Below are positions 1,124 through 43,131 of a stretch of 64,000 nucleotides of DNA, one piece after another. Where the stretch lies: assembly GCA_002869165.1 (NCBI GenBank), contig PKTK01000012.1:7275-71274 (forward strand), in the 5' to 3' direction. Position 1 is the stretch's first letter. Every line of letters begins with the position of its first letter. The translations under genes were made by a program, and so were the position numbers. Below the pieces are notes generated by a model. That model worked only from the letters and a program-made list of their open reading frames with translations, searched no databases and was not told where the DNA came from. This DNA comes from Candidatus Parcubacteria bacterium. GTDB lineage: Bacteria; Patescibacteriota; Patescibacteriia; Patescibacteriales; UBA12075.

Positions 1124-1152
1124 TTGACAAAATTTCTAAAATATGCTATGAT
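1124..1152 (+). promoter_or_regulatory. sigma70-type promoter candidate
   Basis: TTGACA 1124-1129, 17-nt spacer, TATGAT 1147-1152. Confidence 0.45.
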
Positions 1153-1210
1153 AAAATGTTGGAATAATCCAACTATTTGTATATTAAAAATTATATCACA
1201 GGAGGACATC

Positions 1211-2440
1211 ATGGAAAAAGTCACTCATTTGGAACCGGAAAGCTTTTGCAAATTTGTAGGAGCAATCATGGAAGGGATGAAAAAGGGTGCTTCTGATGAT
1301 GACCTCTTTACAAGTATTTCGGAAAAAGTTTCAGGCTACTCTGATCATCTGATCAACTCAGGTATCAAAAAAGCTCGAAGCAATTATGAGAAAATCCAGG
1401 CAAAAGAACGGGAAAAACAGACATGGTTCAATACTGAGATCCTCACACCAATTCTCAATTCTGCTGATACTGAGATTGGTCTCAGGGAACTCCTGACCAC
1501 CGAACCAAAAGAGCTTACAGAAAAATGGCTACAGATGATCAAGTCTTCGCACAATGTCATCTACGCCGGTATCTCCCAGGCAGCCAAGATCTCTCTTGAG
1601 AAAATGGTTGAAGAAAAGTTTCACTACAATCATCTGGCCATGAGCATTCCCGACGCTGCCAAGGATATAGCCAACATGTGGATGCTACCCCGGTATTTTT
1701 TTACTCTCTGCTCCACAGTTGAAGCAAAGATCGCCCAGGACAAGGAGAGGCTCGAAACCAAGCGGGAAAATGCCAGGAAAAAGGCCAGAGAGGCAATCCA
1801 AAAAACTCAGGCTGAACTTGCCAAAAAGCAAGAAAAGAAAAGCCGGAGAAAAAGCCGGAGAAAAGAAAGCGTCGAAGCCTTATTGAGTCGACCCAAAGAA
1901 ATGGTCAGCCTCAAAGGCATCAAGATCCCGGTTATCATTATTGAGTCGAATCAAGAACTTGACCTTATCGGTACCGAGGAATTCTGTCAGCTTTCAGGTA
2001 TCATTCCCGACAAGCCAGTGCTGGTCAAGATGGACGGTGAATACTTCTGGATCTCCAAAACCAAAAGCGGTCGAACCAACAAGAACCTGGCCGAAAATGT
2101 TTCCAAACTTCAGACGAAAAAAGACAAACCTGAGATCGTTGACAACACCATTATTCCGCAAAACTTTACAGCAATGTGGGTAAAGGTAAATGGAAATGTA
2201 ACCAGGGCCATTATCGTCCCTAGTGATCTCTGGGACAACTCTGAGGTTATAAACAAACTAACAACTCCTCGGTACTTGATGAATACTGCTCCCAGCAAAG
2301 AAAACCGGGAGCCTGTATTCTATCATGACGGTCGAAAAATCGCCAAACTCGGTGAAGCCCGTCAGGCAACTCCTGAAGAAAGGAGATCTGCCAAAAATCC
2401 AAAAAGGGGAAAGGTAGACTGGTCCTCAACCAGTCTTTAA
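1211..2440 (+). CDS. hypothetical protein, compositional outlier with a Lys/Arg-rich coiled-coil middle
   Basis: AGGAGG RBS precedes ATG 1211, an internal Met of ORF 1124-2440. Long open frame with no motif I recognise. G+C visibly higher than neighbours. Confidence 0.7.
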   Translation: MEKVTHLEPESFCKFVGAIMEGMKKGASDDDLFTSISEKVSGYSDHLINSGIKKARSNYEKIQAKEREKQTWFNTEILTPILNSADTEIGLRELLTTEPKELTEKWLQMIKSSHNVIYAGISQAAKISLEKMVEEKFHYNHLAMSIPDAAKDIANMWMLPRYFFTLCSTVEAKIAQDKERLETKRENARKKAREAIQKTQAELAKKQEKKSRRKSRRKESVEALLSRPKEMVSLKGIKIPVIIIESNQELDLIGTEEFCQLSGIIPDKPVLVKMDGEYFWISKTKSGRTNKNLAENVSKLQTKKDKPEIVDNTIIPQNFTAMWVKVNGNVTRAIIVPSDLWDNSEVINKLTTPRYLMNTAPSKENREPVFYHDGRKIAKLGEARQATPEERRSAKNPKRGKVDWSSTSL

Positions 2441-14535: not shown

Positions 14536-14961
14536 CTATCTAGAATATACTCCCGCATCACTAGAGGTTAAGGCACTACCAATAAATACAGTAATAGCAT
14601 AGGCAGCTAGAACTATTATCATACCAATTATCGCAGACTGGATTATAGATTTTGCTTTTTCCACATTCTGTTCATTTCCTCTCGCAAACATCCAAGTAAA
14701 ACCACCATAGATCATCAAAAGAAAAAAGAAAACTCCAACAAGAGACAAAACTATTCCAACAATCCTACCGATAGCTTGAGGAATATCCGTCATAACACTA
14801 TTTCCATTCAAGCCCCCAGTACCAACTTCATTTCCCAAATATCCTGTATTAGCTGCCTCATTAAGACCTTCAAAAGCATTGTTAGCCATAGCAAACAACG
14901 GTGTCATTAATAACACAGCGAATAAAAAACTAAAAATATATTTTCTAAAAAATATTTTCAT
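14536..14961 (-). CDS. TrbC/VirB2-like pilin family protein
   Basis: The internal Met start (MKIFFRKY...) avoids overlap with the upstream gene. Core GGFTWMFARGNEQNVEKAKSII. Confidence 0.7.
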   Translation of the reverse strand: MKIFFRKYIFSFLFAVLLMTPLFAMANNAFEGLNEAANTGYLGNEVGTGGLNGNSVMTDIPQAIGRIVGIVLSLVGVFFFLLMIYGGFTWMFARGNEQNVEKAKSIIQSAIIGMIIVLAAYAITVFIGSALTSSDAGVYSR

Positions 14962-14965
14962 TATT

Positions 14966-15361
14966 TTAACCAATTGAAGTTTGTATTGCATTTAACACAA
15001 AAGTAGCTAAAGCAAATGCTGCTAATATTATAACTAAGCCAATGGTAGCATTAGCTAGTAATTTTTTGGCTTCTGTAACTTTATCTTCATTTCCTCCAGC
15101 TGTCATCCACTTAAAACCTGCAAATAATATTAGGCAAATAGCAACGATTCCCAAAAAACCCAAAACAACATTTATAATATCAGCTACTATTAATCTTGGA
15201 TCCTTTTCAGTGAAGCCTCCCATTTTGTTTCCAACTTCTTCTTTGTTTGGAAATATGTCAACTTTCGTATTGTCAGCTGAAACGCTAAGAGGAGTAGACA
15301 TAAAAGAAAAAGCTAATGACAAAAAGAAGACAAAAGCAAGTGTATTTTTTAAAAATTTCAT
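14966..15361 (-). CDS. TrbC/VirB2-like pilin family protein
   Basis: Signal peptide plus AGFKWMTAGGNEDKVTEAKKLL..IGLVIILAAFAL. Confidence 0.75.
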   Translation of the reverse strand: MKFLKNTLAFVFFLSLAFSFMSTPLSVSADNTKVDIFPNKEEVGNKMGGFTEKDPRLIVADIINVVLGFLGIVAICLILFAGFKWMTAGGNEDKVTEAKKLLANATIGLVIILAAFALATFVLNAIQTSIG

Positions 15362-15886: not shown

Positions 15887-16351
15887 TTAAAATCCTACGT
15901 TTGAGCCACTTGTTGTTACACGGAAAATAGCATCTAATACAAATGCGGCCAAAGCGTAAGCAGCTAGAATGATAACTAAACCAATCACACCTGAAACCAA
16001 AAGTCTCTTAGCTTCAGTTACCTTGTCCTCGTTACCTGCTGCAGTCATCCATTTAAATCCACCGAACAAGATCAAAACAACAGCTAAAATACCAAGGAAA
16101 CCTAGCATTAGGTTAATGATATTAGCTGCAATGTTTCTTGGATCATCATTTCCAAGAGAAGTTCTTGCTTGAATGTCATTGTTTCTAGTGTCCCATAGAG
16201 TATTGTTGGCACCTCCAACTTGAGTATTCCACCCTGTTCCACCTCCGACATCATTGTCATTACCTGCCATTGCTACTGTAGCGCTAAGCATAGAGAAAGC
16301 GAATACAAAAATAACAATAGCAGTGCTTATTTTTTTCAAAAATTTTGTCAT
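15887..16351 (-). CDS. TrbC/VirB2-like pilin family protein, first gene of the array
   Basis: Signal peptide plus GGFKWMTAAGNEDKVTEAKRLL..IGLVIILAAYAL. Followed by two hairpins at 15777-15886. Confidence 0.75.
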   Translation of the reverse strand: MTKFLKKISTAIVIFVFAFSMLSATVAMAGNDNDVGGGTGWNTQVGGANNTLWDTRNNDIQARTSLGNDDPRNIAANIINLMLGFLGILAVVLILFGGFKWMTAAGNEDKVTEAKRLLVSGVIGLVIILAAYALAAFVLDAIFRVTTSGSNVGF

Positions 16352-32849: not shown

Positions 32850-33237
32850 GGGGATGCTGGGTTTCGATAGAGAGACTATCATTTTGCATTCGAGATGAGT
32901 TCGTGGGAGTCTCATAAAAACTTTCACACCTAAATAAGTGCAAAAAATGTACTAGCAAAAGCTAAAGCTGCTTTCAGCATGCCAGCTTTTGCACCTGTTG
33001 TCGCTTAAAATTGCCACAACCATCCGACTTCTTGATGTCTAGTAGGGAAGACCCGGGTGTCATATCACTAGACTGGACCCGAGTGTGCGGTTAACTTTGG
33101 TCGAGATTTATCAAACTGCTCGCTGTTTATTTTTTTGTTTGGTTTTTAGATAAACAGTTAAATCACAAACTAATCTAGTCTTCGTAAAATTGTAAAATGT
33201 AACTTTCTAGACGCGAGTTCAACTCTCGCCATCTCCA
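32850..33237 (+). ncRNA. ssrA: tmRNA (SsrA)
   Basis: 5' GGGGATGCTGGGTTTCGA. 3' T-arm GCGAGTTCAACTCTCGC plus acceptor CATCTCC-A with the G3:U pair. Candidate tag ORF 32940-33008 is AKNVLAKAKAAFSMPAFAPVVA*. Adjacent to smpB. Confidence 0.9.
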
Positions 33238-33238
33238 C
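33216..33238 (+). repeat. attL core (part of the functional tmRNA 3' end)
   Basis: Identical to 41857-41879. Confidence 0.85.
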
Positions 33239-34418
33239 AATCAGAAGCAGAACCGAAAGGTTCTGTTTTTGGTTTATTGTTAGCATTAAACTGGACTCCT
33301 AATGACTTCATAATATCTACAAATTGAGCCTTGTTTATTTGCTCACTGTCCATATACTGTCCTTTTTTAGACAAAAGCTTGATTGAGTCCTCTAAAGTTG
33401 AAGGTGAAAGATGGGCGTATCGCATCGTAGTGGAGACACTGCTGTGTCCCATTAACTTTTGAATAACGACTATTGGACAGCCTTTCATCGCCAGATGACT
33501 GGCAAAACTGTGACGAAGGGCGTGCCACATAATCTTTCTGTCTTCCTTATTTTTTAGGTCTAAATTGCTTATAGCTTTTTTTAATGCCCTACGAGCGAGG
33601 TTTTCCTCAAGAAAGTTTCCATTTTTGTCTGTAAAAACAAAACCTTTTGATTTTTTCCTTCTTTCAAATATTTCACGAACCTCATAATCAAAAGGAATAT
33701 GTCTTTCCTTGCTGTTTTTTGGCACTCCTAATATATTTCGGTAGAAAGACTTTCTGACTGAAATAACATTCGTCTCAAAATTTATATCTGACCAACTTAA
33801 TGCACGAATTTCGCCATAACGAAGTCCTGTTCGCAAAACAAGCAATATCATATCTTTTAACATCCCATCAGTTGAACTTAATAATAAATCACTTTCTTCA
33901 AATGAAAGAAAATCATAATCTTGTGGAGGGACTTTTAAAAGTTTTATTTTAGGTTTCTTTTCAAGTTCGCTCCACTCAACCGCAAATTTAAGTATCGTGT
34001 TTAGAACAGTGATGTGTTCATTGATAGTCTTGTTGGCTAATCCCTTATTTTTGTTTAATGCCTTAAACTCTTCTATATTTAAACTTGTAATTAAATCCAG
34101 TTTTTTCTTTCCAAAAAAGGGGATGAGGTGCTTATTGAGAATGCTTGCCCTACCACGCACTCCTGAAATTTTACAATTATTCTTCACATAAACTTCGTGC
34201 CATTTCCAGGCAAATTTTTCAAATACTTCAACTTCCTTTTGCACTTTCTTAACAAAAGGATTTTCACCCTTTACCAATTTTTGCATTATCAATCTTTCAA
34301 AAGCTAAAGCTCCGTTTCTACTATTTTCAGGAGACTTCTTTCTGTATCTTTTACCTTGGTAACGAATATCAATGAACCACTTATTATTGGTGGTGTGTTT
34401 ATTTTTTATTACTGCCAT
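33219..34418 (-). CDS. tyrosine-type site-specific integrase
   Basis: Motifs: TGLRYGEIRAL (Arg I), HALRHSFASHL (H-x-x-R), GHSSVSTTMRYAHL (catalytic Tyr). The start is taken at MAVIKNK.... The last codons run into attL. Confidence 0.9.
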   Translation of the reverse strand: MAVIKNKHTTNNKWFIDIRYQGKRYRKKSPENSRNGALAFERLIMQKLVKGENPFVKKVQKEVEVFEKFAWKWHEVYVKNNCKISGVRGRASILNKHLIPFFGKKKLDLITSLNIEEFKALNKNKGLANKTINEHITVLNTILKFAVEWSELEKKPKIKLLKVPPQDYDFLSFEESDLLLSSTDGMLKDMILLVLRTGLRYGEIRALSWSDINFETNVISVRKSFYRNILGVPKNSKERHIPFDYEVREIFERRKKSKGFVFTDKNGNFLEENLARRALKKAISNLDLKNKEDRKIMWHALRHSFASHLAMKGCPIVVIQKLMGHSSVSTTMRYAHLSPSTLEDSIKLLSKKGQYMDSEQINKAQFVDIMKSLGVQFNANNKPKTEPFGSASDCGDGES

Positions 34419-34614
34419 ATACATCTTCAATACTGTCAATATTAAAACTATTTTTGACCTTATCAAGATTAAAACGGATTTGTCTGCCGACTTTAAAAAA
34501 AGGAATTTTGCGTTCTGTTACAAGACGATAAACAGTTGTAACAGAAACTTGCAACTCATCAGCAAGTTCTTCACCCTTTAAAAAATCTTTAGTTTTATTA
34601 TATTCAGTATTCAT
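34399..34614 (-). CDS. excisionase / MerR-AlpA-type HTH DNA-binding protein
   Basis: LKGEELADELQVSVTTVYRLVTERKIPFFKVGRQIRF. Lies immediately upstream of and overlapping the integrase. Confidence 0.8.
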   Translation of the reverse strand: MNTEYNKTKDFLKGEELADELQVSVTTVYRLVTERKIPFFKVGRQIRFNLDKVKNSFNIDSIEDVYGSNKK

Positions 34615-34704
34615 TACAATTTTTAAGGAGCAACATAGAGCCGACGGGTGATGTCGGGTGGACTATGTCGCAACCTTATCACAATTTTTATTAAATTCAA
34701 ATAT

Positions 34705-35580
34705 CTAATTTCTATTTAAATATTTTTCTAAAATTTTCTCCATTTCTCTTTTTTCTTCCTCTGTAATCTCTACTGATTTATTTATATCTGCAATTACATC
34801 CAAAAAATCATTTTCAGCCAAATTTTCATTCATTATACTACCTCTTTTATTAAGTTTATTGTAAAAATCAATAATGGTAATTATACTTTCATTTTCCAGA
34901 AATTTTTTAATTTCATTTTTATAGTCATCAACCAGCTCCCAGTCGGATTTTTTAATAAAATTTATATCATAATTTGAATGTATTAAATCAATTAAGTATA
35001 AATGCTTTTGAATGTGTTTAATTGCTTTTACTGTGTTTACTAATTTTCTTTGAAAAATAATATTTGGCTGGTTGTTTGGCTCAAGCTCTTCTGGCTCAAC
35101 ACCTTGAGGCGAAAAATAATCAATAAGCTTGATTACATCAAAACCTAAATAATTTTTATCATCAAAAATTTCTTCTATTTTTTTGAACACCCTGTCAGCA
35201 TCCTCTTGGTCTAAACTTTCATTCAATAAATTATAAATTTTCTCTAAATTATTTTCTTCTTTTCTTAATAAAATAAGTTTTACATCAAGCCCAATTATAA
35301 AAGTGTTTAAACTATTTAAAGCTGATTTATAATTTAAATATGCGGTTTGTAAATCCAGGATTATATAAGTAAAACTATTATAAAAAGCAATTAGCTTATT
35401 ATATTCTTCAACTTCTCTTGGGGTGGTGCAAATACCATTCTCCAGCCTCTCTTGCTCTAAAACGCTTATTATTCGCTCTCCACCATCAGTAACTGAATTA
35501 TTATTGGCAAACAATAACTCCACTTTCTCTTTAAAGGGTAAATTTTTTGATAAATTTTTAAAATCAATTTTGCTCTTCAT
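34705..35580 (-). CDS. hypothetical island protein
   Basis: 291-aa ORF. No motif recognised. Confidence 0.55.
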   Translation of the reverse strand: MKSKIDFKNLSKNLPFKEKVELLFANNNSVTDGGERIISVLEQERLENGICTTPREVEEYNKLIAFYNSFTYIILDLQTAYLNYKSALNSLNTFIIGLDVKLILLRKEENNLEKIYNLLNESLDQEDADRVFKKIEEIFDDKNYLGFDVIKLIDYFSPQGVEPEELEPNNQPNIIFQRKLVNTVKAIKHIQKHLYLIDLIHSNYDINFIKKSDWELVDDYKNEIKKFLENESIITIIDFYNKLNKRGSIMNENLAENDFLDVIADINKSVEITEEEKREMEKILEKYLNRN

Positions 35581-35584
35581 ATGT

Positions 35585-35962
35585 TTAGTTTAATTTTATT
35601 TTCTTTTTAACCACTATTGCTTCAATGGTTTCAATTTTTGACTTGATAGATATTTGCTCATAAGCTTTTAGTAGTTGCCCAGAAAGAACTCCGATGCAGT
35701 TGGCAGTTTTGTTATCCATTCTTCCTCCTCTAACCTCATTTATTACTTCGTTTAGTAGAGAAATTATATCCTCTGCTTGTTTAATCTCTATGGGATGTAA
35801 GTTGTGTTTAATTAAATTTTTATTTGCAATACCACCATTTCTGCGAGCTTGCATTTTTTCTTTTTCAGATATTTTTTCACTGTGCCAAAAACAGTGCTGT
35901 TCTCCTTTCAATGCCCGTGATAAACATTGACCTCCTTTTTCTTTTTTGTGTTCACATTGCAT
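35585..35962 (-). CDS. hypothetical island protein with an N-terminal C-x10-C-x12-C-x2-H knuckle
   Basis: MQCEHKKEKGGQCLSRALKGEQHCFWH resembles the CxxKxxxGxxCxxxAxxGxxxCxxH motif common in phage and plasmid proteins. Confidence 0.55.
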   Translation of the reverse strand: MQCEHKKEKGGQCLSRALKGEQHCFWHSEKISEKEKMQARRNGGIANKNLIKHNLHPIEIKQAEDIISLLNEVINEVRGGRMDNKTANCIGVLSGQLLKAYEQISIKSKIETIEAIVVKKKIKLN

Positions 35963-36080
35963 ATAAGTTAACTTATGGGGGGGCTATATTGTTACTCTAT
36001 TGTTTGTTTATTTAACCTTAAAGGAGATAACTATATAGTTCCTATATTTAGTATTATAGTAATATACTACTGTTCTATAA

Positions 36081-36425
36081 TTAAAAATTAATTTTATCCA
36101 CTTCAATTTCCGTGTCATTATCACGAATACTTTTGCCTATTAAATAGTTATCATACTCTTCGCTAAACTGATTTAATGCTTTTTTTGTCAATTCGTCCCA
36201 AAATATTTTATCTTCTGTAAAAAATATTTTCTTCCATTTTTTGTCCCCATAAGGCACGGACGGAGGGTAAAGAACAAATTGTTGGGTATTAGTTTCAAAT
36301 TTTGATTTACGAATTGTAAATCCGTTGATTTCAAATTGAGCAACTAACATTGTTCCGATTGCTGGCAATTTTTCATCATCACGATAAGTAAATTTAAAAT
36401 TTACATCCTCAATGCTAATTTTCAT
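36081..36425 (-). CDS. hypothetical island protein
   Basis: 114-aa ORF. Confidence 0.5.
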   Translation of the reverse strand: MKISIEDVNFKFTYRDDEKLPAIGTMLVAQFEINGFTIRKSKFETNTQQFVLYPPSVPYGDKKWKKIFFTEDKIFWDELTKKALNQFSEEYDNYLIGKSIRDNDTEIEVDKINF

Positions 36426-36583
36426 AAAAATATATTAATAATTAAAAAACCTATACTAATTATATTATTAGTATAGGCTATAAATATTGGCTAAAAATAA
36501 TAGGTTACATTATTTATTTTTTTAATCAATTTTGTAAATTATTAATAAATTCCACTATAATAAATAATCTAACGGGTTACATT

Positions 36584-37597
36584 TTAGGTTACATTCTTTT
36601 TTCTGTGCTTATTAACCTTTCTTGCATTTCTTTTCCTTTTGCATTCTGGTCTAATTTTTTCCGAACAAACTTCACCTGAATACCTTCTTCCATCTGGATT
36701 AAATAAAGGTAAAATTCTATTACATTCTGCACATCTTCGGACTTCATTTTCAGAAAGATAAAGTAATTCATAATATAAAAGCGATTTATAGTCATTAAAT
36801 ACTATTACACAATCCTCTCTTTCGTCAAAGGTGCATCTTTTAGTAAAGTTTTCAATGTTTTTTTTATTTATTTTTTTAGTTTTTAGTGCATTATTATTCA
36901 GAACTCCATCACACATCTCTACTAATTCCCATATTGCCTTGTTGCAATTAAAAATTTTCTTATACTTTAAATCTTGTCTTAAAAATTCAACATCCTCTTC
37001 TGTTATTTGGTTTAAATATATTTTTTCTTCATATTTTTTTATTATTTTGTATATTTTATTTGCCTCATCTTGTGTAATTCCAAAAATATCTAAATTATCT
37101 TTTTTTTCAAAAACATCAGTAAAGCTATACATTCTCCATTCCAGCAAGCCACCATAATCTACATACTCCACATTTATAGCAGGCATTGTCTTGTATGTAA
37201 TATCATCTTTCATATTGCTAAAATATTGTTTAATAGAGTCGCTACCCTTGGGCATTAAAGACCCTTTTAAGTATACTTGATTTCCAGCATTGTGATATTC
37301 CACAGAAACTAAAAAAACCAAGGAAAATTGCTTGTCATAAGGAGGTGATAGTTCGTAATTAAAAATATCACAAGAAACAGTAATATCACAAACTTCATTT
37401 ACTATCCTTTCAAGCTCGCCCTCATTTTTAAGGTATAATTCTACCAAGGAATTATCTTCCTTTTCTATATCTAAATCTTCTAATTTTAATTCGCTTGCTT
37501 GCCATCTCGGTATTATAGCAATACATTTATGTTCAACATAACCCAAATTTTCATTAATAACATCTCTTGCCCTTTTTGTTGTATACTTTTTAGCCAT
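36584..37597 (-). CDS. hypothetical island protein with a C-terminal Cys cluster and basic tail
   Basis: 337 aa, ending ...RRCAECNRILP...GEVCSEKIRPECKRKRNARKVNKHRKK. Confidence 0.6.
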   Translation of the reverse strand: MAKKYTTKRARDVINENLGYVEHKCIAIIPRWQASELKLEDLDIEKEDNSLVELYLKNEGELERIVNEVCDITVSCDIFNYELSPPYDKQFSLVFLVSVEYHNAGNQVYLKGSLMPKGSDSIKQYFSNMKDDITYKTMPAINVEYVDYGGLLEWRMYSFTDVFEKKDNLDIFGITQDEANKIYKIIKKYEEKIYLNQITEEDVEFLRQDLKYKKIFNCNKAIWELVEMCDGVLNNNALKTKKINKKNIENFTKRCTFDEREDCVIVFNDYKSLLYYELLYLSENEVRRCAECNRILPLFNPDGRRYSGEVCSEKIRPECKRKRNARKVNKHRKKNVT

Positions 37598-37803
37598 TTT
37601 AAAAATTAAAAAACTATGTCATTATAGCCGAGAAGCTATTCAGAGACGCAGAAAGGTTTAACTCCTCTGGACAAGAAGAGTAATCTCTAAATTAAATCTC
37701 GGCTACAAGGACAGAGCCATAATTTATTTCCTTTCTGCTTTGTTAATGTTTAAATGAAGTGTCCAGTTTCACTATTATTAATATATCAATTATATTATTA
37801 TAG

Positions 37804-38667
37804 TCAATTATTTTTAATTGTATTTTTAATAATAAATTCTAAATACTCTTTGTTATTGCCAAAAACTGTTTTTGCACTTCTAACTGTTCTTTTGATTATA
37901 TTATCAAACTGCCTTTCGGTTATATCAATATATTTTATATCGTTATTGGTAAGTAGGTCCCAGTTTGCATACAAAACAATATTAGAAGTTAAAGGCAAAG
38001 TAAACTCTATGTCTTTATGTCCAAACCCAGCTCTTGCACCAATTGCGTTAGGTCCAAATTTTTTTTCTCTTTCAGGGCTACATATATGTGCTGGATTATC
38101 AGAGGATATAAAATTTTTATCCTTTGGTGCTGTTAATAGCTTCCAGTGCATATTATATAAATAATTTGCAACATACAAAGAAGTGTTCATTGAACTATTT
38201 GCGAAGTGCGAATTAAAATTTTCTAAACCTTCTTTAATTTCGTCTATGCTAACACCCTTACCAGAAGAGGCTGGAGGCAAATAACTATCACTGTTATTTA
38301 CAGAAAAATTTTTTGAGCTTTCTGCAATATCATTCAAAAATCCCCTAAACTGCTCTCTATTTAATCTAATTCTGTTAAAAATTGTTGATGTATAAATGGA
38401 TAGCCATAATTTATCGGTGGTGTTAATTGGTTCTTTATTATTTATTTTATTTTTAATAATTTTTGAATATTCACTTTCTAATTCCGACAAACTCTCCTCA
38501 ATATCAAGAGAGCCATTAACAGTATTATAATGACCTTCTTTAAATTTATTTAGCGGGTTAGTTTTATAAATCCTGTCGTCCTCTTCTAAAACCCAAATTT
38601 TACCATCTTTATCGGCAAAATTTTTCTGGTAAGTTACACTAATGTAATGGTGATAGACTTTTTTCAT
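37804..38667 (-). CDS. DUF4238-family protein
   Basis: N-terminal HHYISVTYQKNF and C-terminal W..L......FISSDNP are signatures I associate with DUF4238. Confidence 0.6.
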   Translation of the reverse strand: MKKVYHHYISVTYQKNFADKDGKIWVLEEDDRIYKTNPLNKFKEGHYNTVNGSLDIEESLSELESEYSKIIKNKINNKEPINTTDKLWLSIYTSTIFNRIRLNREQFRGFLNDIAESSKNFSVNNSDSYLPPASSGKGVSIDEIKEGLENFNSHFANSSMNTSLYVANYLYNMHWKLLTAPKDKNFISSDNPAHICSPEREKKFGPNAIGARAGFGHKDIEFTLPLTSNIVLYANWDLLTNNDIKYIDITERQFDNIIKRTVRSAKTVFGNNKEYLEFIIKNTIKNN

Positions 38668-38718: not shown

Positions 38719-38766
38719 AAGAAAAAACCTGCGAAAGCGTTGTTTTGCTATCGCAGGTTGTGTTGT
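38719..38766 (-). terminator. terminator, copy 1 of a duplicated ~48-bp module
   Basis: On the minus strand, CCTGCGA...TCGCAGG is followed by TTTTTTCTT. It nearly matches 40122-40169. Confidence 0.6.
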
Positions 38767-38782
38767 ATAAAGTTTCAAGTTT

Positions 38783-39436
38783 TTAACTTATGATATTTTT
38801 TGCATTATGTATAAATGCTTTTAATTTTTCATTGCTTTTAAATCCGCTTTCTCCTTTCGTGCCAGAGTTGGCATCAACACCGAAAGGTTTTACTGCCTGG
38901 ATTGCCTCATTAACATTTTCAGGATTAAGTCCTCCTGCTAAAAAGACAGGCTTTCTGTATTTTTCTACTATCTCACGACTTAAATCCCAATCGTGTGTTA
39001 TTCCGGTTCCTCCAACTTGGTCAGTTTCAAGGTTCACGGTATCCAACAATATTGCATCTACGGCATTTAAATATCCATAACCATTAGCAATAGATTTTTC
39101 ATTTACCACGTGCAGGGATTTAATCAGTTTTATATATGGTATTTTCTCCCTGATAATTTGGGCGTCATCTGGCGTGCTGTCACCGTGCAACTGAATAGTT
39201 GTTACTCCGATGAATTGAGCAAGCGAAACAATTTCTTCATTATCAACAAGATGGGTTACAAATACGGATGAACAAAATGGAGGCAAATGACTCACTATTT
39301 TTTTAGCAAATTCTTTATCAATAAAATCAGTTGATGAATGTTTTTGCCCAACCAGCAAACCGATTGCATCAGCACCATAGAATACTGCCATCAATGCATC
39401 CTCTGTGCTTTTTATACCGCATACTTTAACTCTCAT
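38783..39436 (-). CDS. trpF: phosphoribosylanthranilate isomerase
   Basis: MRVKVCGIKSTEDA...GADAIGLLV...TIQLHG...GGTGITHDW...FLAGGLNPENV...PFGVDANSG matches canonical TrpF along its full length. AAGGAG RBS. The ORF-track N-terminal extension is rejected. Confidence 0.9.
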   Translation of the reverse strand: MRVKVCGIKSTEDALMAVFYGADAIGLLVGQKHSSTDFIDKEFAKKIVSHLPPFCSSVFVTHLVDNEEIVSLAQFIGVTTIQLHGDSTPDDAQIIREKIPYIKLIKSLHVVNEKSIANGYGYLNAVDAILLDTVNLETDQVGGTGITHDWDLSREIVEKYRKPVFLAGGLNPENVNEAIQAVKPFGVDANSGTKGESGFKSNEKLKAFIHNAKNIIS

Positions 39437-40019
39437 TTTTTTCTCCTTTTGTTCTATGTTTAAGAATAAGTTCAAGTAAAATTTCAGCATACCAGTCTGC
39501 GACTTCAACCATTGCATCGGTTGCTTCCTTGTCATTGGAATAAAGTCTCTTGCCAAAGTTATCAATTTTTCTTTCGCATTTTGAAAAAAGAATACTAACA
39601 AGAGAGGAATGGTGGTTGCATAGACAAAATTCAATATATGCAATCATTGCTCTTTTGAGAAATTCTGGAGACTCTGCATTAATACAGTCAATAAAATGTT
39701 CTGCTATTGCGTTAGCCACTTCTTTGTCATCGCCAGCTTCTGTGAAATGGGCATAAGGCAACAAAAAAAGCATTTCAGTTTCTTTGTTGAAATCAATCAC
39801 TTCCTCAAGATAGCCCTTAACTTCAACTATTGCCTTTTTCGCTAAATCACTCAAAATGCCTGGATAATGCTCTTTATCTAAATACACAGCAAGAGCTTCA
39901 ACACCATCACCTCCGTTATTAAAAACAGATGCTTCCATAATCATCTTTTTGTTCAATCCAATAATATATGGTATTTCGTGCCATTTGATTGCTCCAACTC
40001 CACCGCCTATTGTAAGCAT
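39426..40019 (-). CDS. hypothetical island cargo protein
   Basis: 197 aa with a GGAGGAGG RBS. Overlaps the trpF start by 11 nt. Confidence 0.6.
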   Translation of the reverse strand: MLTIGGGVGAIKWHEIPYIIGLNKKMIMEASVFNNGGDGVEALAVYLDKEHYPGILSDLAKKAIVEVKGYLEEVIDFNKETEMLFLLPYAHFTEAGDDKEVANAIAEHFIDCINAESPEFLKRAMIAYIEFCLCNHHSSLVSILFSKCERKIDNFGKRLYSNDKEATDAMVEVADWYAEILLELILKHRTKGEKNES

Positions 40020-40121
40020 AATTTCCTCCTCCAGTTTGAATATTTTGTATTACAAATTATTATCAAGGTTCAAATATGATTATATATGTTTATCATATTT
40101 TATATAAAAAATCAAGAATAA

Positions 40122-40169
40122 AAGAAAAACCTGCTAAAGCGTTGTTTTGCTCTTCGCAGGTTGTGTTGT
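40122..40169 (-). terminator. terminator, copy 2 of the duplicated ~48-bp module
   Basis: AAGAAAAACCTGCTAAAGCGTTGTTTTGCTCTTCGCAGGTTGTGTTGT compared with 38719-38766. Confidence 0.55.
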
Positions 40170-40184
40170 TTGTGGGTTTATTGG

Positions 40185-40415
40185 TTAAAGCCACCAAAAG
40201 GTTTTGTTGTTTTTGGCTAACCCTTTTCCAATTTGCTCACGGACATCTGCAAATGAATGAAGGGCGAAAAGATTGAAAGTTTTTCCATCTCTTTCTATGC
40301 TACGACCGGTGTCACTCACTTCCATAGCGTCAAAATCAATCATTAGCATTCCGCCGTCTTTTACAGACATTATCCGTAGTTCGTCAAAATTTGCGTCTAC
40401 TGCTATTACAGCCAT
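40185..40415 (-). CDS. hypothetical small island cargo protein
   Basis: 76 aa with an AAGGAGGG RBS. Confidence 0.55.
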   Translation of the reverse strand: MAVIAVDANFDELRIMSVKDGGMLMIDFDAMEVSDTGRSIERDGKTFNLFALHSFADVREQIGKGLAKNNKTFWWL

Positions 40416-40427
40416 TGAAGCCCTCCT

Positions 40428-40931
40428 TTATTCATCGTAAAGATAATTAGCCAACACGGCGAATATCTCGTTGTTGTTTCTTTTGGCGATGTCTTCTGCG
40501 TTTATAAGGGACAACAAATCCAGTTCAATGGCGACAGCCATCATCACGGCTTCATCGGCTTGTTCAGGCAGTCCAGAAAAGGAAAGGATGTAGTTGTCGG
40601 CAACGATAGCTCCGCCCCATTTCCCGTTATCAGGGTCACGGCTTTCATAGCTGGTCATATGACCAAGCTCAAAGTGTGTAGAAATAAGCCTTGCTCCTTT
40701 CTCTTCGGAGTTGTAGGAGTAAGCTGACCATTTTTCTTGCGGAACAGGTTTGCCGACAATACTTACAAACTCAAGTCTTTTAGCGCCAAGGCTGTAAATA
40801 CTGACATAGCCTCCTTTTTTGAGGATGCCTTTACTTGTTGCAAGTTCTGGGTAATTTTTAACAAGAATGTTAACAATCTCCCCGGTTTTTTCAATTACCT
40901 TTTCAACAACTTTTGCTGTAAATTCGTTCAC
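40428..40931 (-). CDS. hypothetical protein with a GlcG/DUF336-like C-terminal motif
   Basis: GTG start with an AGGAGGG RBS. WGGAIVADNYILSFSGLPEQADEAV parallels the DUF336 GGA(I/V)..G..IGAIGVSG....DE motif. The call is weak. Confidence 0.5.
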   Translation of the reverse strand: MNEFTAKVVEKVIEKTGEIVNILVKNYPELATSKGILKKGGYVSIYSLGAKRLEFVSIVGKPVPQEKWSAYSYNSEEKGARLISTHFELGHMTSYESRDPDNGKWGGAIVADNYILSFSGLPEQADEAVMMAVAIELDLLSLINAEDIAKRNNNEIFAVLANYLYDE

Positions 40932-40943
40932 GCTTCCCTCCTG

Positions 40944-41252
40944 TTATTTAGATTTTTCGGTTTTCATTTCACCAGCCGAGAAAAACCCCTCAACCGCCAT
41001 TGTTTCAGTGTCAATATCAATATTGGCTTCTTTGAGCTTTTCCTTGATTTCATTGCGTGTTTTTTCTTCGGTGGAACAGATGCGGATGTAAGGTGCTGAT
41101 TTGACACTGCTATCAAAAGTCCACACAGTAGATGGGACAAATGTAACAATTGCGTCTTTCTGCAACCCCATATCGTGCATTACCAGTCCGATAATTGAAG
41201 TAAGGTTGCTTGCCTTATTTTCATCCATTCCAAAAATCATAATGTTTGGCAT
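40944..41252 (-). CDS. hypothetical protein starting Met-Pro (tautomerase-superfamily-like N-terminus, speculative)
   Basis: 102 aa beginning MPNIMIFG.... Confidence 0.5.
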   Translation of the reverse strand: MPNIMIFGMDENKASNLTSIIGLVMHDMGLQKDAIVTFVPSTVWTFDSSVKSAPYIRICSTEEKTRNEIKEKLKEANIDIDTETMAVEGFFSAGEMKTEKSK

Positions 41253-41305
41253 TTTCTTTCTCCTAATAAGTCTGTGTTTAAATAATGATAAATAATAAAT
41301 AATAA

Positions 41306-41560
41306 TTACAAAATAGATTTTTTTATTTCAATTTTTGGATTTGACAAGGTGATTACCATTTCAAATTCTAATGTTTTTAACATTTTAATCAAGGTTTCAA
41401 AAGATAAATTTTTTTTACCACCTTCAACAAGTGCAATATAATTTGAGGTTAGCTCCATTTTATCAGCCAGTGTTTTTTGAGATATGCCGTTGTTTATTCT
41501 TGCAGTCTTTAATAAGATGCCCATATCTTTCATTGCTTGTATCTTTATTTTTTCTATCAT
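41306..41560 (-). CDS. XRE-family HTH transcriptional regulator
   Basis: LKTARINNGISQKTLADKMELTSNYIALVEGGKKNLSFETLIKM. Confidence 0.8.
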   Translation of the reverse strand: MIEKIKIQAMKDMGILLKTARINNGISQKTLADKMELTSNYIALVEGGKKNLSFETLIKMLKTLEFEMVITLSNPKIEIKKSIL

Positions 41561-41856
41561 TTAACTCTCCTTTTTCGCTTTATATAATTGTAAAATGAAC
41601 AAAAATTAATATTACAGTATATCACGAAAACTACAAAAAGTCAACTATTTTAGCTGACTCTGAAATTTAATCCCTAATGTCACTTCCTCTATGTTGCATT
41701 GAGCATTTCACTGCCCAAATACTGTCCACGAAGTGGTAATTAATGATTAAATGTGAATAGTAGTGACGACTTCTGCAAATCGGTTTTTTCTTTAAGTTAA
41801 AGCAAATTATTGAATTTTGTTTAACCTTGCAGAAATACTCAATTTGCCTCTTTTAC

Positions 41857-41879
41857 AGTTCAACTCTCGCCATCTCCAC
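41857..41879 (+). repeat. attR core (displaced native tmRNA 3' end, continues ..CCA plus native terminator)
   Basis: Identical to 33216-33238. Followed by an 18-bp-stem terminator at 41881-41922. Confidence 0.85.
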
Positions 41880-42068
41880 CATAATAAAACAGTCATTTGA
41901 AATGGCTGTTTTATTATGGTGTAAATGGTGGGTATGTTTAAATTGCTATGATTATACGCATTATTATCACAAAAAAAACAAATAGCAGGTAGACGGTACA
42001 AAACAGAAAAATTAAAAATATTTTGAGGGGGTGAGGCTTCTGCCTCTCTACTCTCACCATCTCCACCA
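41880..42068 (+). mobile_element. cargo-less mini-insertion at the tmRNA 3' end (element B), in tandem with the island
   Basis: A degenerate third copy of the tmRNA end, TCTACTCTCACCATCTCCACCA 42047-42068 (offset 187 bp), is preceded by TTGAGGGGGTG 42023-42033 and hairpin GAGGC-TTCT-GCCTC 42033-42046. Confidence 0.5.
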
Positions 42069-42139
42069 ACATAAAACAACCACACAAAGTGGTTGTTTTA
42101 TTTTATAAGACTATTGAAAATAAAGTTACTATAAATTAT

Positions 42140-42693: not shown

Positions 42694-43131
42694 TTAATTT
42701 TTCTGAGTACTGAAACCTGCTTGCACAACTGACCGAAAAGCAATATCATGAGCTCCTTCATTGTTTTCATCATCCAGAGAAATACCGATTGCACCTATCA
42801 ATGACTGACCATTATATATCGGTACTCCGCCACCTTCACAGATAAATCTCTCTGTCTGAATTCCCATAATCTCAGGTGTTGTTCCTCTTTCATCAAGTGC
42901 ACGTTGACAGTACTTAGTACTTTCACCAGTCCACAATGATTGTCTGGCTTTCAAAAAAGCCTCGTTGGATAAACCTGGGCTCATGTTTTCCATTATGCTT
43001 CTGGCAATCTCTACGCCACTCACATTAACAATTTTGATTGATGCATTTAACATTCTCTCCGTGGTCTCATTGTATGCCAAATTAAGTATTTGCATAGCCT
43101 CTTTGGCAACTAGCGATTTAACTTGTCCCAT
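42694..43131 (-). CDS. GlcG/DUF336 (heme-binding-like) family protein
   Basis: GGGVPIYNGQSLIGAIGISLDDENNEGAHDIA. Confidence 0.7.
   Translation of the reverse strand: MGQVKSLVAKEAMQILNLAYNETTERMLNASIKIVNVSGVEIARSIMENMSPGLSNEAFLKARQSLWTGESTKYCQRALDERGTTPEIMGIQTERFICEGGGVPIYNGQSLIGAIGISLDDENNEGAHDIAFRSVVQAGFSTQKN

What the first reader, a model, noticed from the sequence alone, without database searches (positions are those of the whole stretch)
38719..41560. G+C-richer island cargo operon: XRE regulator, Met-Pro protein, GlcG-like protein, two unknowns and an orphan trpF, punctuated by a duplicated terminator
The genes at 40944-41252, 40428-40931, 40185-40415, 39426-40019 and trpF (38783-39436) all have strong GGAGG-type RBSs and tight spacing or overlap. 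They look richer in G+C than the rest of the island. TrpF matches canonical phosphoribosylanthranilate isomerase along its full length, yet no other trp gene is nearby and the gene rides on a mobile element. Its partners are a protein beginning Met-Pro (tautomerase-superfamily style, speculative) and a protein with a DUF336/GlcG-like GGAI...SFSGL....DEA motif. A second, clearer GlcG-like gene lies just outside the island at 42694-43131. Two nearly identical ~48-bp terminator modules (38719-38766 and 40122-40169) end the two halves, suggesting cassette-wise assembly. The set may be a small-molecule (ribosyl/Amadori-type) modification or salvage module rather than tryptophan biosynthesis.
Basis: partly seen in the sequence, partly recalled or inferred. 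Interest (0 to 1): 0.55.

Follow-up and report, generated by a model that had tools for sequence, protein, structure and literature searches.

The report
Island cargo genes with orphan TrpF
The far end of a small mobile island in a Parcubacteria genome carries two short gene units pieced together from unrelated genes, including a stand-alone relative of the tryptophan enzyme TrpF that lacks the residue that grips TrpF's normal substrate, so it probably does a different job.

Summary
All six minus-strand genes, their GGAG(G) ribosome-binding sites, the tight spacing, and the two near-identical terminators are real.

They sit at the attR end of an 8.6-kb island integrated into the tmRNA gene of a Candidatus Parcubacteria genome.

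**Tested guesses**
- Supported: the Met-Pro protein (B) belongs to the tautomerase superfamily (AlphaFold pLDDT 96; Foldseek hits MIF/4-OT/DUF1904; Pro1 conserved in at least 90% of 47 relatives).
- Not supported: the "GlcG-like" protein (C) has no Pfam, profile or fold link to GlcG. It belongs to a very rare family.
- D has no detected relatives; E matches only itself among 5.8 billion proteins.

**TrpF**
- It keeps the catalytic Cys and Asp and the phosphate-binding motifs.
- It belongs to a widespread stand-alone clade in which the anthranilate-binding Arg36 is Asp (117 of 119 members).
- Clade members checked are never next to trp genes. Canonical Arg-type TrpFs in the same scan are.

**Linkage**
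- About 100 related loci show no conserved linkage among B, C, D, E and TrpF.
- Base composition separates three layers: XRE and the island backbone, B-C-D, and E-TrpF.

The cluster is best read as mosaic cargo in two transcription units, not a conserved pathway. The Asp-type TrpF clade is the one lead worth following.

The parts
32850..33238 (+). tmRNA gene; its 3' end is the island attachment site (attL, 33216-33238)
   Evidence: ARAGORN; Rfam RF00023, 116 bits; direct-repeat family D2
33219..34466 (-). Tyrosine integrase of the island
   Evidence: Pfam Phage_integrase E 1.9e-31 and Phage_int_SAM_3
37804..38667 (-). DUF4238 protein, the next island gene downstream of terminator 2
   Evidence: Pfam PF14022 E 1e-24; partial PADLOC DUF4238-Pers hit, E 1.4e-6
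38719..38766 (-). Intrinsic terminator 2 (after TrpF), copy of the repeated module. Homology extends to about 38681 and includes a TATAAT-like box
   Evidence: -19.1 kcal/mol, z -6.7; repeat D1 and alignment A2
38783..39436 (-). Stand-alone TrpF-like (beta-alpha)8 isomerase of the Asp-type clade
   Evidence: Pfam PRAI 114.8 bits. Best NCBIfam equivalog scores 166.9, below its cutoff of 215. Cys6 and Asp132 align with T. maritima TrpF (tmTrpF) Cys7 and Asp126, and Asp37 aligns with Arg36
39426..40019 (-). E, a 197-aa ORFan translationally coupled to TrpF (11-nt overlap)
   Evidence: GGAGGAGG ribosome-binding site; only itself found among 5.8 billion proteins; no Pfam, PHROG, PADLOC, NCBIfam or PDB match
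40079..40108 (-). Candidate promoter of the E-TrpF unit (TTTATA-18-TATAAT), part of the repeated module
   Evidence: Consensus scan, 10 of 12 matches; inferred only
40122..40169 (-). Intrinsic terminator 1 (after D), copy of the repeated module
   Evidence: -15.6 kcal/mol, z -5.1; 42 of 45 identical to terminator 2
40185..40415 (-). D, a 76-aa protein of unknown function
   Evidence: GGAGG ribosome-binding site, 12 nt after C. No match in any profile library, PDB, the phage collection or the fetched loci. Not searched against the large protein databases
40428..40931 (-). C, a 167-aa member of a very rare family (7 relatives found). Alpha/beta sandwich, not GlcG-like
   Evidence: alignment A1 with 27 invariant residues; AlphaFold pLDDT 88; no PDB or BFVD fold match; no Pfam hit
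40944..41252 (-). B, a 102-aa tautomerase-superfamily protein with an N-terminal Pro
   Evidence: 92 relatives; P2, N3, G8, P54, E83 and F90 at least 90% conserved; pLDDT 96, two beta-alpha-beta units; Foldseek hits MIF, DUF1904, 4-OT and CHMI at E 1e-5, TM 0.6-0.66
41306..41560 (-). XRE-family helix-turn-helix regulator
   Evidence: Pfam HTH_3 E 6.5e-9. Sub-threshold similarity to HipB, C-protein and CapH models. G+C 26.7%, like the island backbone
41616..41659 (-). Candidate promoter (TTGACT-17-TATACT with TG) and a 21-bp palindrome overlapping its -35 box; possible XRE operator
   Evidence: function inferred
41857..41887 (+). attR: direct repeat of the tmRNA 3' end (90% identical)
   Evidence: repeat family D2
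42044..42074 (+). Older, degraded copy of the att repeat (74%); scar of an earlier island
   Evidence: repeat families D2 and D3

Best explanation
**What it is**
The region is the cargo end of an 8.6-kb integrase-mobilised island inserted in the tmRNA gene of a Candidatus Parcubacteria (CPR) bacterium. It is a mosaic of unrelated accessory genes arranged as two transcription units. It is not a conserved pathway.

**Unit 1**
- A sigma-70-like promoter carries a 21-bp palindrome over its -35 box. It drives XRE, then B, C and D, and ends at terminator 1.
- XRE has the A+T-rich composition of the island backbone. It is probably the island's own repressor, binding the palindrome (inferred).
- B-C-D is a G+C-richer insert read from the same promoter.
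- B is a Pro1 tautomerase-superfamily enzyme. Its relatives are stand-alone genes among housekeeping genes in three contexts, at least one from a Patescibacteria MAG.
- C is a rare, enzyme-like alpha/beta protein. D is unknown.

**Unit 2**
- A copy of the same terminator-plus-promoter module drives E and a translationally coupled TrpF-like gene. The unit ends at terminator 2.

**The TrpF-like protein**
- It does not work in tryptophan synthesis.
- It belongs to a horizontally spread, stand-alone clade.
- The clade keeps the Amadori-rearrangement machinery: general base Cys, general acid Asp, and the phosphate-binding loops.
- The clade replaces the Arg that salt-bridges the anthranilate carboxylate with an invariant Asp.
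- Most likely (inferred) it isomerises a different N-(5-phosphoribosyl)amine, one presenting an amino or cationic group. The closest analogy is the Chlamydia TrpF that acts on a ribosylamino-pyrimidine.
For: **Island**
- tmRNA, integrase and att repeats.
- Source organism named as Candidatus Parcubacteria.

**Two transcription units**
- Strong hairpin terminators.
- Repeated module of about 100 bp.
- Promoter-like sites at 41644-41616 and 40108-40079, and a unique palindrome.

**Mosaic origin**
- GC3 z-scores: B 2.5, C 2.8, D 1.4, against E -0.1, TrpF -0.1 and XRE -0.3. Backbone genes are 26-34% G+C.

**No conserved linkage**
- C homologues sit in three other contexts without B, D, E or TrpF.
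- Asp-type TrpF neighbours are gatA/gatB, GyrI-like, GYD, an integrase, a methyltransferase, DUF952, DUF2726 and PanK.
- B relatives lie among LeuRS, sigma factor, YceG, L19, Gmk, SerRS and TopA genes.
- HMM and tblastn searches over about 100 loci find no co-occurrence.

**TrpF residues**
- Cys7 is conserved in 118 of 119 and Asp126 in 119 of 119. The GG and S-G phosphate motifs are kept. Position 36 is Asp in 117 of 119.
- The roles of Cys7, Asp126 and Arg36 are stated in PMC2667513.
- Solved TrpFs from Thermotoga and Thermus have Arg there.
- Of 80 metagenome loci, 34 Arg-type genes are 31-42% identical to the window protein. Four of the five checked sit beside trpC, trpB, trpA or trpD.
- No trp genes occur in the window.

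**Precedent**
- Chlamydia TrpF converts the GTP cyclohydrolase II product to dihydroneopterin monophosphate (PMC4161248).
Against: - B, C, D, E and TrpF do sit together, all with strong ribosome-binding sites. Chance assembly of two isomerase-type enzymes is not proven.
- A 120-aa protein starting MPVIKVW lies 48 bp upstream of the C homologue in L006-L008. This hints at a recurring Pro1-protein/C pair, but hhalign gives only E 0.0065 over 38 residues and the B-family HMM does not detect it.
- Promoters and the operator are consensus matches only.
- The Arg36-to-Asp change rests on alignment across a loop with a 2-residue insertion.
- No substrate was tested, and Chlamydia TrpF was not checked at this position.
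- Only about a dozen Asp-type neighbourhoods were examined.
Confidence: 0.62

Rival explanations
1. B (tautomerase), C (ligand-binding or enzyme-like), D, E and the TrpF-like isomerase act together, under XRE control, as one small-molecule ribosyl/Amadori modification or salvage pathway.
For: - Both recognisable enzymes are proton-shuffling isomerases. An Amadori rearrangement ends in an enol-to-keto step that a tautomerase could assist (established chemistry).
- All genes share orientation, strong ribosome-binding sites and tight spacing.
- A possible second case of a Met-Pro protein directly upstream of a C homologue.
- A C-like gene overlaps a phosphoribosyltransferase gene in L009.
Against: - No co-occurrence of any two families in about 100 loci.
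- A strong terminator and a separate promoter-like site lie between D and E.
- B-C-D and E-TrpF differ in composition.
- E is an ORFan.
- B relatives are stand-alone genes in housekeeping contexts.
Confidence: 0.12
2. The gene is an ordinary TrpF. It supplies the phosphoribosylanthranilate isomerase step of tryptophan biosynthesis, or of a partial anthranilate salvage route, for the host.
For: - Full-length Pfam PRAI match with the catalytic Cys and Asp conserved.
- Public sources name clade members phosphoribosylanthranilate isomerase.
- Chlamydia TrpF keeps PRA isomerase activity alongside its second role.
Against: - The Arg36 equivalent is Asp in 117 of 119 clade members.
- The protein scores below every NCBIfam TrpF equivalog cutoff.
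- No trp genes occur in the 64-kb window.
- About a dozen clade members checked are never beside trp genes, while Arg-type genes are.
- CPR bacteria generally lack amino-acid biosynthesis (PMC7567580 abstract).
- Some clade members come from Mycobacterium. From my own knowledge, PriA already covers the TrpF step there.
Confidence: 0.06
3. The XRE-led cluster is an anti-phage defence or toxin-antitoxin-type cassette carried by the island. The small proteins act as effectors or sensors.
For: - The location is a mobile island, next to a DUF4238 gene that partly matches a PADLOC candidate-defence model.
- XRE resembles HipB-type antitoxins, restriction-modification control proteins and CapH regulators at sub-threshold scores.
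- Rare and ORFan genes are typical of defence islands (general knowledge).
Against: - No PADLOC or PHROG hit for B, C, D or E, and no PADLOC hit for TrpF. TrpF's only PHROG match is a family of unknown function.
- B relatives sit among housekeeping genes.
- Neither C nor Asp-type TrpF is found on IMG/VR viral contigs.
- No nuclease, ATPase, NAD-degrading or membrane effector domain was recognised.
Confidence: 0.1

Closest known systems
Canonical phosphoribosylanthranilate isomerase TrpF (Pfam PF00697; T. maritima TrpF, PDB 1LBM)
   Same: - Same length and (beta-alpha)8 family, aligned end to end at 38% identity.
- Catalytic Cys7 and Asp126 equivalents and the C-terminal phosphate-binding motifs are conserved.
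   Different: - The Arg36 that binds the anthranilate carboxylate is Asp.
- The surrounding loop carries the clade motif G-Q-x-H-x-S-x-D-F with a 2-residue insertion.
- The protein scores below all NCBIfam equivalog cutoffs.
- The gene is never in a trp operon, and here it sits on a mobile island in a CPR genome.
Chlamydia trachomatis TrpF (Adams et al. 2014, PMC4161248)
   Same: A TrpF retained outside a complete trp pathway. It performs an Amadori rearrangement on a non-anthranilate substrate, 2,5-diamino-6-ribosylamino-4(3H)-pyrimidinone 5'-phosphate. It is the best functional precedent for an orphan TrpF.
   Different: - The Chlamydia enzyme still isomerises phosphoribosylanthranilate.
- Its residue at position 36 was not checked here.
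- No folate, pterin or riboflavin genes were seen next to Asp-type clade members.
Tautomerase superfamily, long forms (MIF, D-dopachrome tautomerase, CHMI, DUF1904)
   Same: - B is predicted with high confidence to have two beta-alpha-beta units.
- Its N-terminal Met-Pro is conserved in at least 90% of 47 relatives.
- Top Foldseek hits are MIF, DUF1904, 4-OT-like and CHMI structures.
   Different: - No Pfam or PDB sequence-level match.
- The family has its own motifs (MPNIEIxG, PYIRICST).
- The contexts seen are Patescibacteria-type genomes.
- No substrate is known.
tmRNA (ssrA)-targeting integrase islands and prophages
   Same: Tyrosine integrase next to the tmRNA 3' end, a direct repeat of that end at the far boundary, and accessory cargo at the end opposite the integrase.
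   Different: The island is very small (8.6 kb) and has no recognisable replication, capsid or transfer genes. The host is a CPR bacterium.
GlcG/HbpS-like (DUF336, PF03928) proteins
   Same: C shows a superficially similar local pattern: GG-x-I, a strand, then an acidic helix. A true family member lies 1.8 kb away at 42694-43131.
   Different: No profile, profile-profile or fold similarity was found for C. Membership is rejected.

Membership tests
TrpF / phosphoribosylanthranilate isomerase (functional equivalog) | Full-length match to the PRAI (beta-alpha)8 domain | tested here: met
   Pfam PF00697, positions 1-193 of 193, 114.8 bits against a cutoff of 22.7
TrpF / phosphoribosylanthranilate isomerase (functional equivalog) | Catalytic general base Cys7 and general acid Asp126 (T. 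maritima numbering) | tested here: met
   Cys6 and Asp132 of the window protein align with them. They are conserved in 118 of 119 and 119 of 119 clade members. Roles are from PMC2667513
TrpF / phosphoribosylanthranilate isomerase (functional equivalog) | Arg36, which salt-bridges the anthranilate carboxylate (the S-x-R motif) | tested here: not met
   Asp in the window protein and in 117 of 119 clade members. Arg in Thermotoga and Thermus TrpF and in 35 Arg-type loci
TrpF / phosphoribosylanthranilate isomerase (functional equivalog) | Score above a curated equivalog threshold | tested here: not met
   Best NCBIfam hit NF002298 scores 166.9 bits against a cutoff of 215. All 13 TrpF models are below cutoff
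TrpF / phosphoribosylanthranilate isomerase (functional equivalog) | Genomic association with other trp genes or a complete pathway | tested here: not met
   None in the window. None beside about a dozen clade members. Positive control: Arg-type genes are flanked by trpC, trpB, trpA or trpD. The whole genome was not available
TrpF / phosphoribosylanthranilate isomerase (functional equivalog) | PRA-to-CdRP isomerase activity | not testable with these tools
   Needs an enzyme assay or complementation of a trpF deletion
Tautomerase superfamily (protein B) | Beta-alpha-beta fold (two units in the long forms) | tested here: met
   AlphaFold pLDDT 96.3 with elements E-H-E ... E-H-E. Foldseek PDB hits MIF, DUF1904, 4-OT and CHMI at E 1.4e-5, probability 1.0, TM 0.6-0.66
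Tautomerase superfamily (protein B) | Conserved N-terminal proline (Pro1 after Met removal) | tested here: met
   P2 is conserved in at least 90% of 47 relatives
Tautomerase superfamily (protein B) | Sequence-profile match to a described family (PF01361, PF01187, PF08921 and others) | tested here: not met
   No such Pfam hit for any of 47 members. No PDB sequence hit
Tautomerase superfamily (protein B) | Trimer or hexamer assembly and tautomerase activity | not testable with these tools
   Needs biochemistry
GlcG/HbpS-like, DUF336 (protein C) | Match to PF03928 or to a family member by profile | tested here: not met
   No Pfam hit for 8 members at E up to 10. hhalign against the window's own PF03928 protein gives probability 0.1%
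GlcG/HbpS-like, DUF336 (protein C) | GlcG-like fold | tested here: not met
   Model pLDDT 88. No GlcG, HbpS or PduO-C structure among the 50 best PDB matches. Best E 0.075, TM below 0.45
Integrase-mobilised genomic island at tmRNA | Tyrosine integrase adjacent to the tmRNA 3' end, plus a direct repeat of that end at the far boundary | tested here: met
Integrase-mobilised genomic island at tmRNA | Empty target site in a related genome, or an excised circle | not tested
   Both related assemblies found (L001, L002) carry the island or its attR-side cargo genes
Rho-independent terminator | Stable G+C-rich hairpin followed by a U-run, placed after a stop codon | tested here: met
   The hairpins start 16-17 nt after the D and TrpF stop codons
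Conserved operon / functional module (B-C-D-E-TrpF) | Recurrent co-localisation of the gene families in unrelated genomes | tested here: not met

The most novel reading that the evidence does not exclude
The Asp-type TrpF clade may be an undescribed family of stand-alone Amadori isomerases.
- **Clade markers:** the motif G-Q-x-H-x-S-x-D-F, with catalytic Cys and Asp retained.
- **Primary substrate:** it would not be phosphoribosylanthranilate. It would be another 5-phosphoribosylamine, for example a ribosylamino-pyrimidine from GTP or nucleotide breakdown.
- **Spread:** the clade would move horizontally between CPR bacteria, mycobacteria and methanogens. It is sometimes fused to a TudS-like desulfidase.
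- **Role in CPR:** it would give auxotrophic CPR cells a salvage or repair step.
- **Stronger version:** in this island it would cooperate with the Pro1 tautomerase B and the rare protein C.
Probability: 0.3. Interest if true: 0.6.

Novelty: new variant of a known kind. Interest (0 to 1): 0.36.

Why it matters
**As an operon, the finding is ordinary.** It is a patchwork of accessory genes on a small integrative island.

**Two by-products have some value.**
1. Automatic annotation calls a large, cross-domain set of genes "phosphoribosylanthranilate isomerase".
   - These genes lack the anthranilate-binding arginine and never sit in trp operons.
   - Metabolic reconstructions of CPR bacteria, mycobacteria and methanogens would therefore wrongly credit them with a tryptophan step.
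   - The real substrate could reveal a new salvage or repair reaction of the TrpF/HisA type.
2. Protein B defines a family of tautomerase-superfamily proteins absent from Pfam. The genomes where it was seen are Patescibacteria-type.

The locus also documents tmRNA-targeted island traffic and cassette-wise cargo assembly in a CPR genome.

Tried and rejected
- **Profile libraries:** PADLOC, PHROGs and NCBIfam gave nothing for B, C, D or E.
- **Fold and sequence searches:** fold searches of C against PDB and BFVD found no significant match. PDB sequence searches of the C, D and E sequences and the B profile found nothing.
- **GlcG hypothesis for C:** rejected.
- **Phage and plasmid collections:**
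  - tblastn found no hits for D in phages or B in plasmids.
  - Plasmid TrpFs are all below 40% identity and so lie outside the 47-70% Asp-type clade. Their position-36 residue was not checked.
- **IMG/VR scans:** no C or Asp-type TrpF.
- **Genome-contig scan:** the single TrpF protein returned only two distant genes, and that scan was wasted.
- **The search for related loci with B-family alignments:** failed for lack of a conserved stretch.
- **Rfam:** only tmRNA, with no riboswitch or leader in the cargo region.
- **Literature:** searches for orphan TrpF in CPR, or for TrpF-TudS fusions, found nothing directly relevant.
- **L006 120-aa "MPVIKVW" protein as a B-family member:** the evidence is too weak to accept.
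- **Terminator module as a dispersed repeat:** only two copies occur in the window.

Full report
**Setting**

The window is A+T-rich (32.6% G+C). It carries typical housekeeping genes of a Candidate Phyla Radiation bacterium: FtsH, TrmD, YchF, RecA, EF-P, SSB, S6, trigger factor, NusA, PPDK, TruB and T4SS-pilin-like small proteins. Protein E is identical to an NCBI entry from "Candidatus Parcubacteria bacterium".

A tmRNA gene lies at 32850-33238. A tyrosine integrase on the opposite strand follows immediately at 33219-34466. The last 23-31 nt of the tmRNA recur at 41857-41887 (90% identical) and, more degraded, at 42044-42074. The segment from about 33.2 to 41.9 kb is therefore an 8.6-kb integrative island, with the scar of an older one beside it. 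The finding is the attR-proximal third of this island.

- All six ORFs exist on the minus strand at the stated coordinates.
- Each has GGAG or GGAGG upstream. None of the seven backbone genes of the island does.
- Spacing is 53, 12 and 12 nt for XRE, B, C and D. A 165-nt gap follows, and E overlaps TrpF by 11 nt.
- The two terminators fold at -19.1 and -15.6 kcal/mol (z -6.7 and -5.1; none of 200 shuffles does as well). Each is followed by a T-run.
- Their cores differ at 3 of 45 positions. Similarity continues for about 100 bp, through a TATAAT-like box. What is duplicated is therefore a terminator-plus-promoter module.
- Only two copies occur in the window.
- The best promoter-like site on this strand is TTGACT-17-TATACT with an upstream TG, at 41644-41616, just ahead of XRE. 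A unique 21-bp palindrome overlaps its -35 box.
- A second promoter-like site (TTTATA-18-TATAAT, 40108-40079) lies between terminator 1 and E.
- I therefore read two transcription units, XRE-B-C-D and E-TrpF. The promoters and the operator are inferred from consensus only.

**Composition**

Measured against 35 host ORFs, it resolves into layers:

| Gene | GC3 z-score |
|---|---|
| B | 2.5 |
| C | 2.8 |
| D | 1.4 |
| E | -0.1 |
| TrpF | -0.1 |
| XRE | -0.3 (26.7% G+C overall, like the backbone) |

This argues for at least three origins. It also suggests XRE belongs to the island rather than to the cargo.

**The individual proteins**

- **XRE** is a plain HTH_3 protein. It has sub-threshold similarity to HipB antitoxins, restriction-modification control proteins and CapH.
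- **B** has no Pfam, PHROG, PADLOC or NCBIfam match.
  - An exhaustive HMMER search found 92 distant relatives of about 100 aa.
  - In 47 aligned members, M1 is invariant, and P2, N3, G8, P54, E83 and F90 are at least 90% conserved.
  - AlphaFold gives pLDDT 96.3 and two beta-alpha-beta units.
  - Foldseek returns MIF, DUF1904, 4-oxalocrotonate-tautomerase-like and CHMI structures at E about 1e-5, probability 1.0 and TM 0.6-0.66.
The family is not in Pfam.
- **C** has only seven relatives among 5.8 billion proteins.
  - It has 27 invariant residues, which gives it an enzyme-like look.
  - Its model is confident (pLDDT 88), but it matches nothing in PDB or BFVD. The best E is 0.06-0.08, with weak resemblance to GAF, LuxR-ligand-binding and roadblock-type sandwiches.
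  - No family member hits PF03928 or any Pfam model, even at E 10.
  - hhalign against the true GlcG-like neighbour gives 0.1% probability. The GlcG idea is rejected.
- **D** has no detected relatives. It was checked against the profile libraries, PDB, the phage collection and the fetched loci, but not against the large protein databases.
- **E** has no relatives at all.

**TrpF**

- The protein matches PRAI over its whole length and is 38% identical to T. maritima TrpF.
- It falls below every curated NCBIfam TrpF cutoff.
- Its closest 119 relatives (52-70% identity) come from Patescibacteria, Saccharimonadales, Mycobacterium/Mycolicibacterium, Methanosarcina and many metagenomes.
- In this clade the catalytic Cys7 and Asp126 and the phosphate-binding glycines are essentially invariant. 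Position 36 is Asp in 117 of 119, inside a clade motif G-Q-x-H-x-S-x-D-F.
- In T. maritima TrpF, Arg36 forms the salt bridge to the carboxylate of the bound product analogue (PMC2667513).
- Thermotoga and Thermus TrpF have Arg there.

Classifying 80 metagenome loci by these positions gives three groups:

| Type | Loci | Identity to the window protein |
|---|---|---|
| Arg-type (canonical) | 34 | 31-42% |
| Cys-Cys type, with MPSGPG in place of S-x-R | 32 | 36-42% |
| Asp-type | 14-15 | 41-70% |

- As a positive control, four of the five Arg-type loci examined have trpC, trpB, trpA or trpD next door.
- Asp-type genes have unrelated neighbours: gatA/gatB, a phage-type integrase, GYD, methyltransferases, DUF952, DUF2726, pantothenate kinase and GyrI-like genes. 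None has a trp gene beside it.
- The Cys-Cys type is likewise solitary.
- Two Asp-type clusters are fused to a C-terminal PF04463/TudS-like domain. TudS enzymes prefer 4-thio-UMP, another 5'-phosphoribosyl compound (PMC10611767).
- The window itself has no trp-pathway family.
- A documented precedent for a TrpF working outside tryptophan synthesis is Chlamydia TrpF. It rearranges the GTP cyclohydrolase II product to dihydroneopterin monophosphate (PMC4161248).
- I therefore infer that this gene keeps Amadori chemistry but targets a different phosphoribosylamine. The substrate is unknown, and no folate or riboflavin genes were seen nearby.

**Is it a module?**

- C homologues sit in three other contexts without B, D, E or TrpF.
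- B relatives are stand-alone genes among housekeeping genes.
- HMM and tblastn searches of about 100 fetched loci find no pair of these families together.

Two weak hints remain:
- A 120-aa protein beginning MPVIKVW lies 48 bp upstream of the C homologue in L006-L008. hhalign aligns only its first 38 residues to the B family (E 0.0065, probability 5.8%), and the B HMM misses it.
- A C-like gene overlaps a phosphoribosyltransferase gene in L009.

These keep a B-C partnership alive at low probability.

**Verdict**

- The sequence features are real.
- The cluster is mosaic island cargo in two units, not a conserved pathway.
- The tautomerase call is right and the GlcG call is wrong.
- The orphan-TrpF point is right. 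It extends to a widespread, apparently undescribed Asp-type TrpF-like clade whose annotation as a tryptophan enzyme is doubtful.
- Interest is moderate to low for the locus as a whole, and moderate for the TrpF clade.

Noticed in passing
window 41857-41887 and 42044-42102: There are two successive copies of the tmRNA 3' end (90% and 74% identical). Each is followed by a terminator-like hairpin. This points to repeated island integration at this site and a leftover scar of 187 bp.
   Followed up: partly
window 33219-38667: The seven island backbone genes show no Shine-Dalgarno motif in the 22 nt upstream of their starts. All six cargo genes and some neighbouring host genes have GGAG(G).
   Followed up: no
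window 37804-38667: This is a DUF4238 protein (PF14022, E 1e-24) with a partial match to the PADLOC candidate-defence model DUF4238-Pers (E 1.4e-6). It may be the island's defence-type cargo.
   Followed up: no
window 41639-41659: A unique 21-bp palindrome, AGTCAACTATTTTAGCTGACT, overlaps the -35 box of the best promoter-like site upstream of XRE. It is a candidate operator.
   Followed up: partly
L015, L028, L030-L035, L039-L040 and about 22 more metagenome loci: A second stand-alone TrpF-like group has Cys-Cys at the catalytic position (RVKICCI) and MPSGPG in place of the S-x-R motif. It accounts for 32 of 80 loci. It is not next to trp genes in the 5 loci checked.
   Followed up: partly
proteins P0058 and P0090: An Asp-type TrpF-like domain is fused to a C-terminal PF04463 (TudS-like thiouracil/4-thio-UMP desulfidase) domain. 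The two TudS/RudS papers checked do not mention this fusion.
   Followed up: partly
L010 5014-5664; L018 1398-2078: In L010 an Asp-type TrpF gene is inserted between gatA and gatB, overlapping the gatA stop. In L018 another lies directly downstream of a phage-type integrase. Both fit a mobile, stand-alone gene.
   Followed up: partly
L009 6779-8552: A distant C-family member (P0006, 37% identical) overlaps by 17 nt the end of a 412-aa protein with a Pribosyltran domain.
   Followed up: no
L006 7591-7953 (also L007, L008): A 120-aa protein starting MPVIKVW lies 48 bp upstream of the C homologue P0004. It may be a second Pro1-type protein paired with the C family, but the evidence is weak.
   Followed up: partly
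window 1124-2440: This ORF has the highest G+C (43%) and GC3 (0.47) in the window and no Pfam match. It may be another foreign gene.
   Followed up: no
window 14536-14991 and 15887-16351: Two small secreted or membrane proteins match the T4SS_pilin Pfam family.
   Followed up: no
plasmid hits H6-H8 (Corynebacterium aurimucosum and C. striatum plasmids, 25-29 kb): These small corynebacterial plasmids carry an annotated TrpF that is 35% identical to the window protein. It is another case of a mobile trpF.
   Followed up: no
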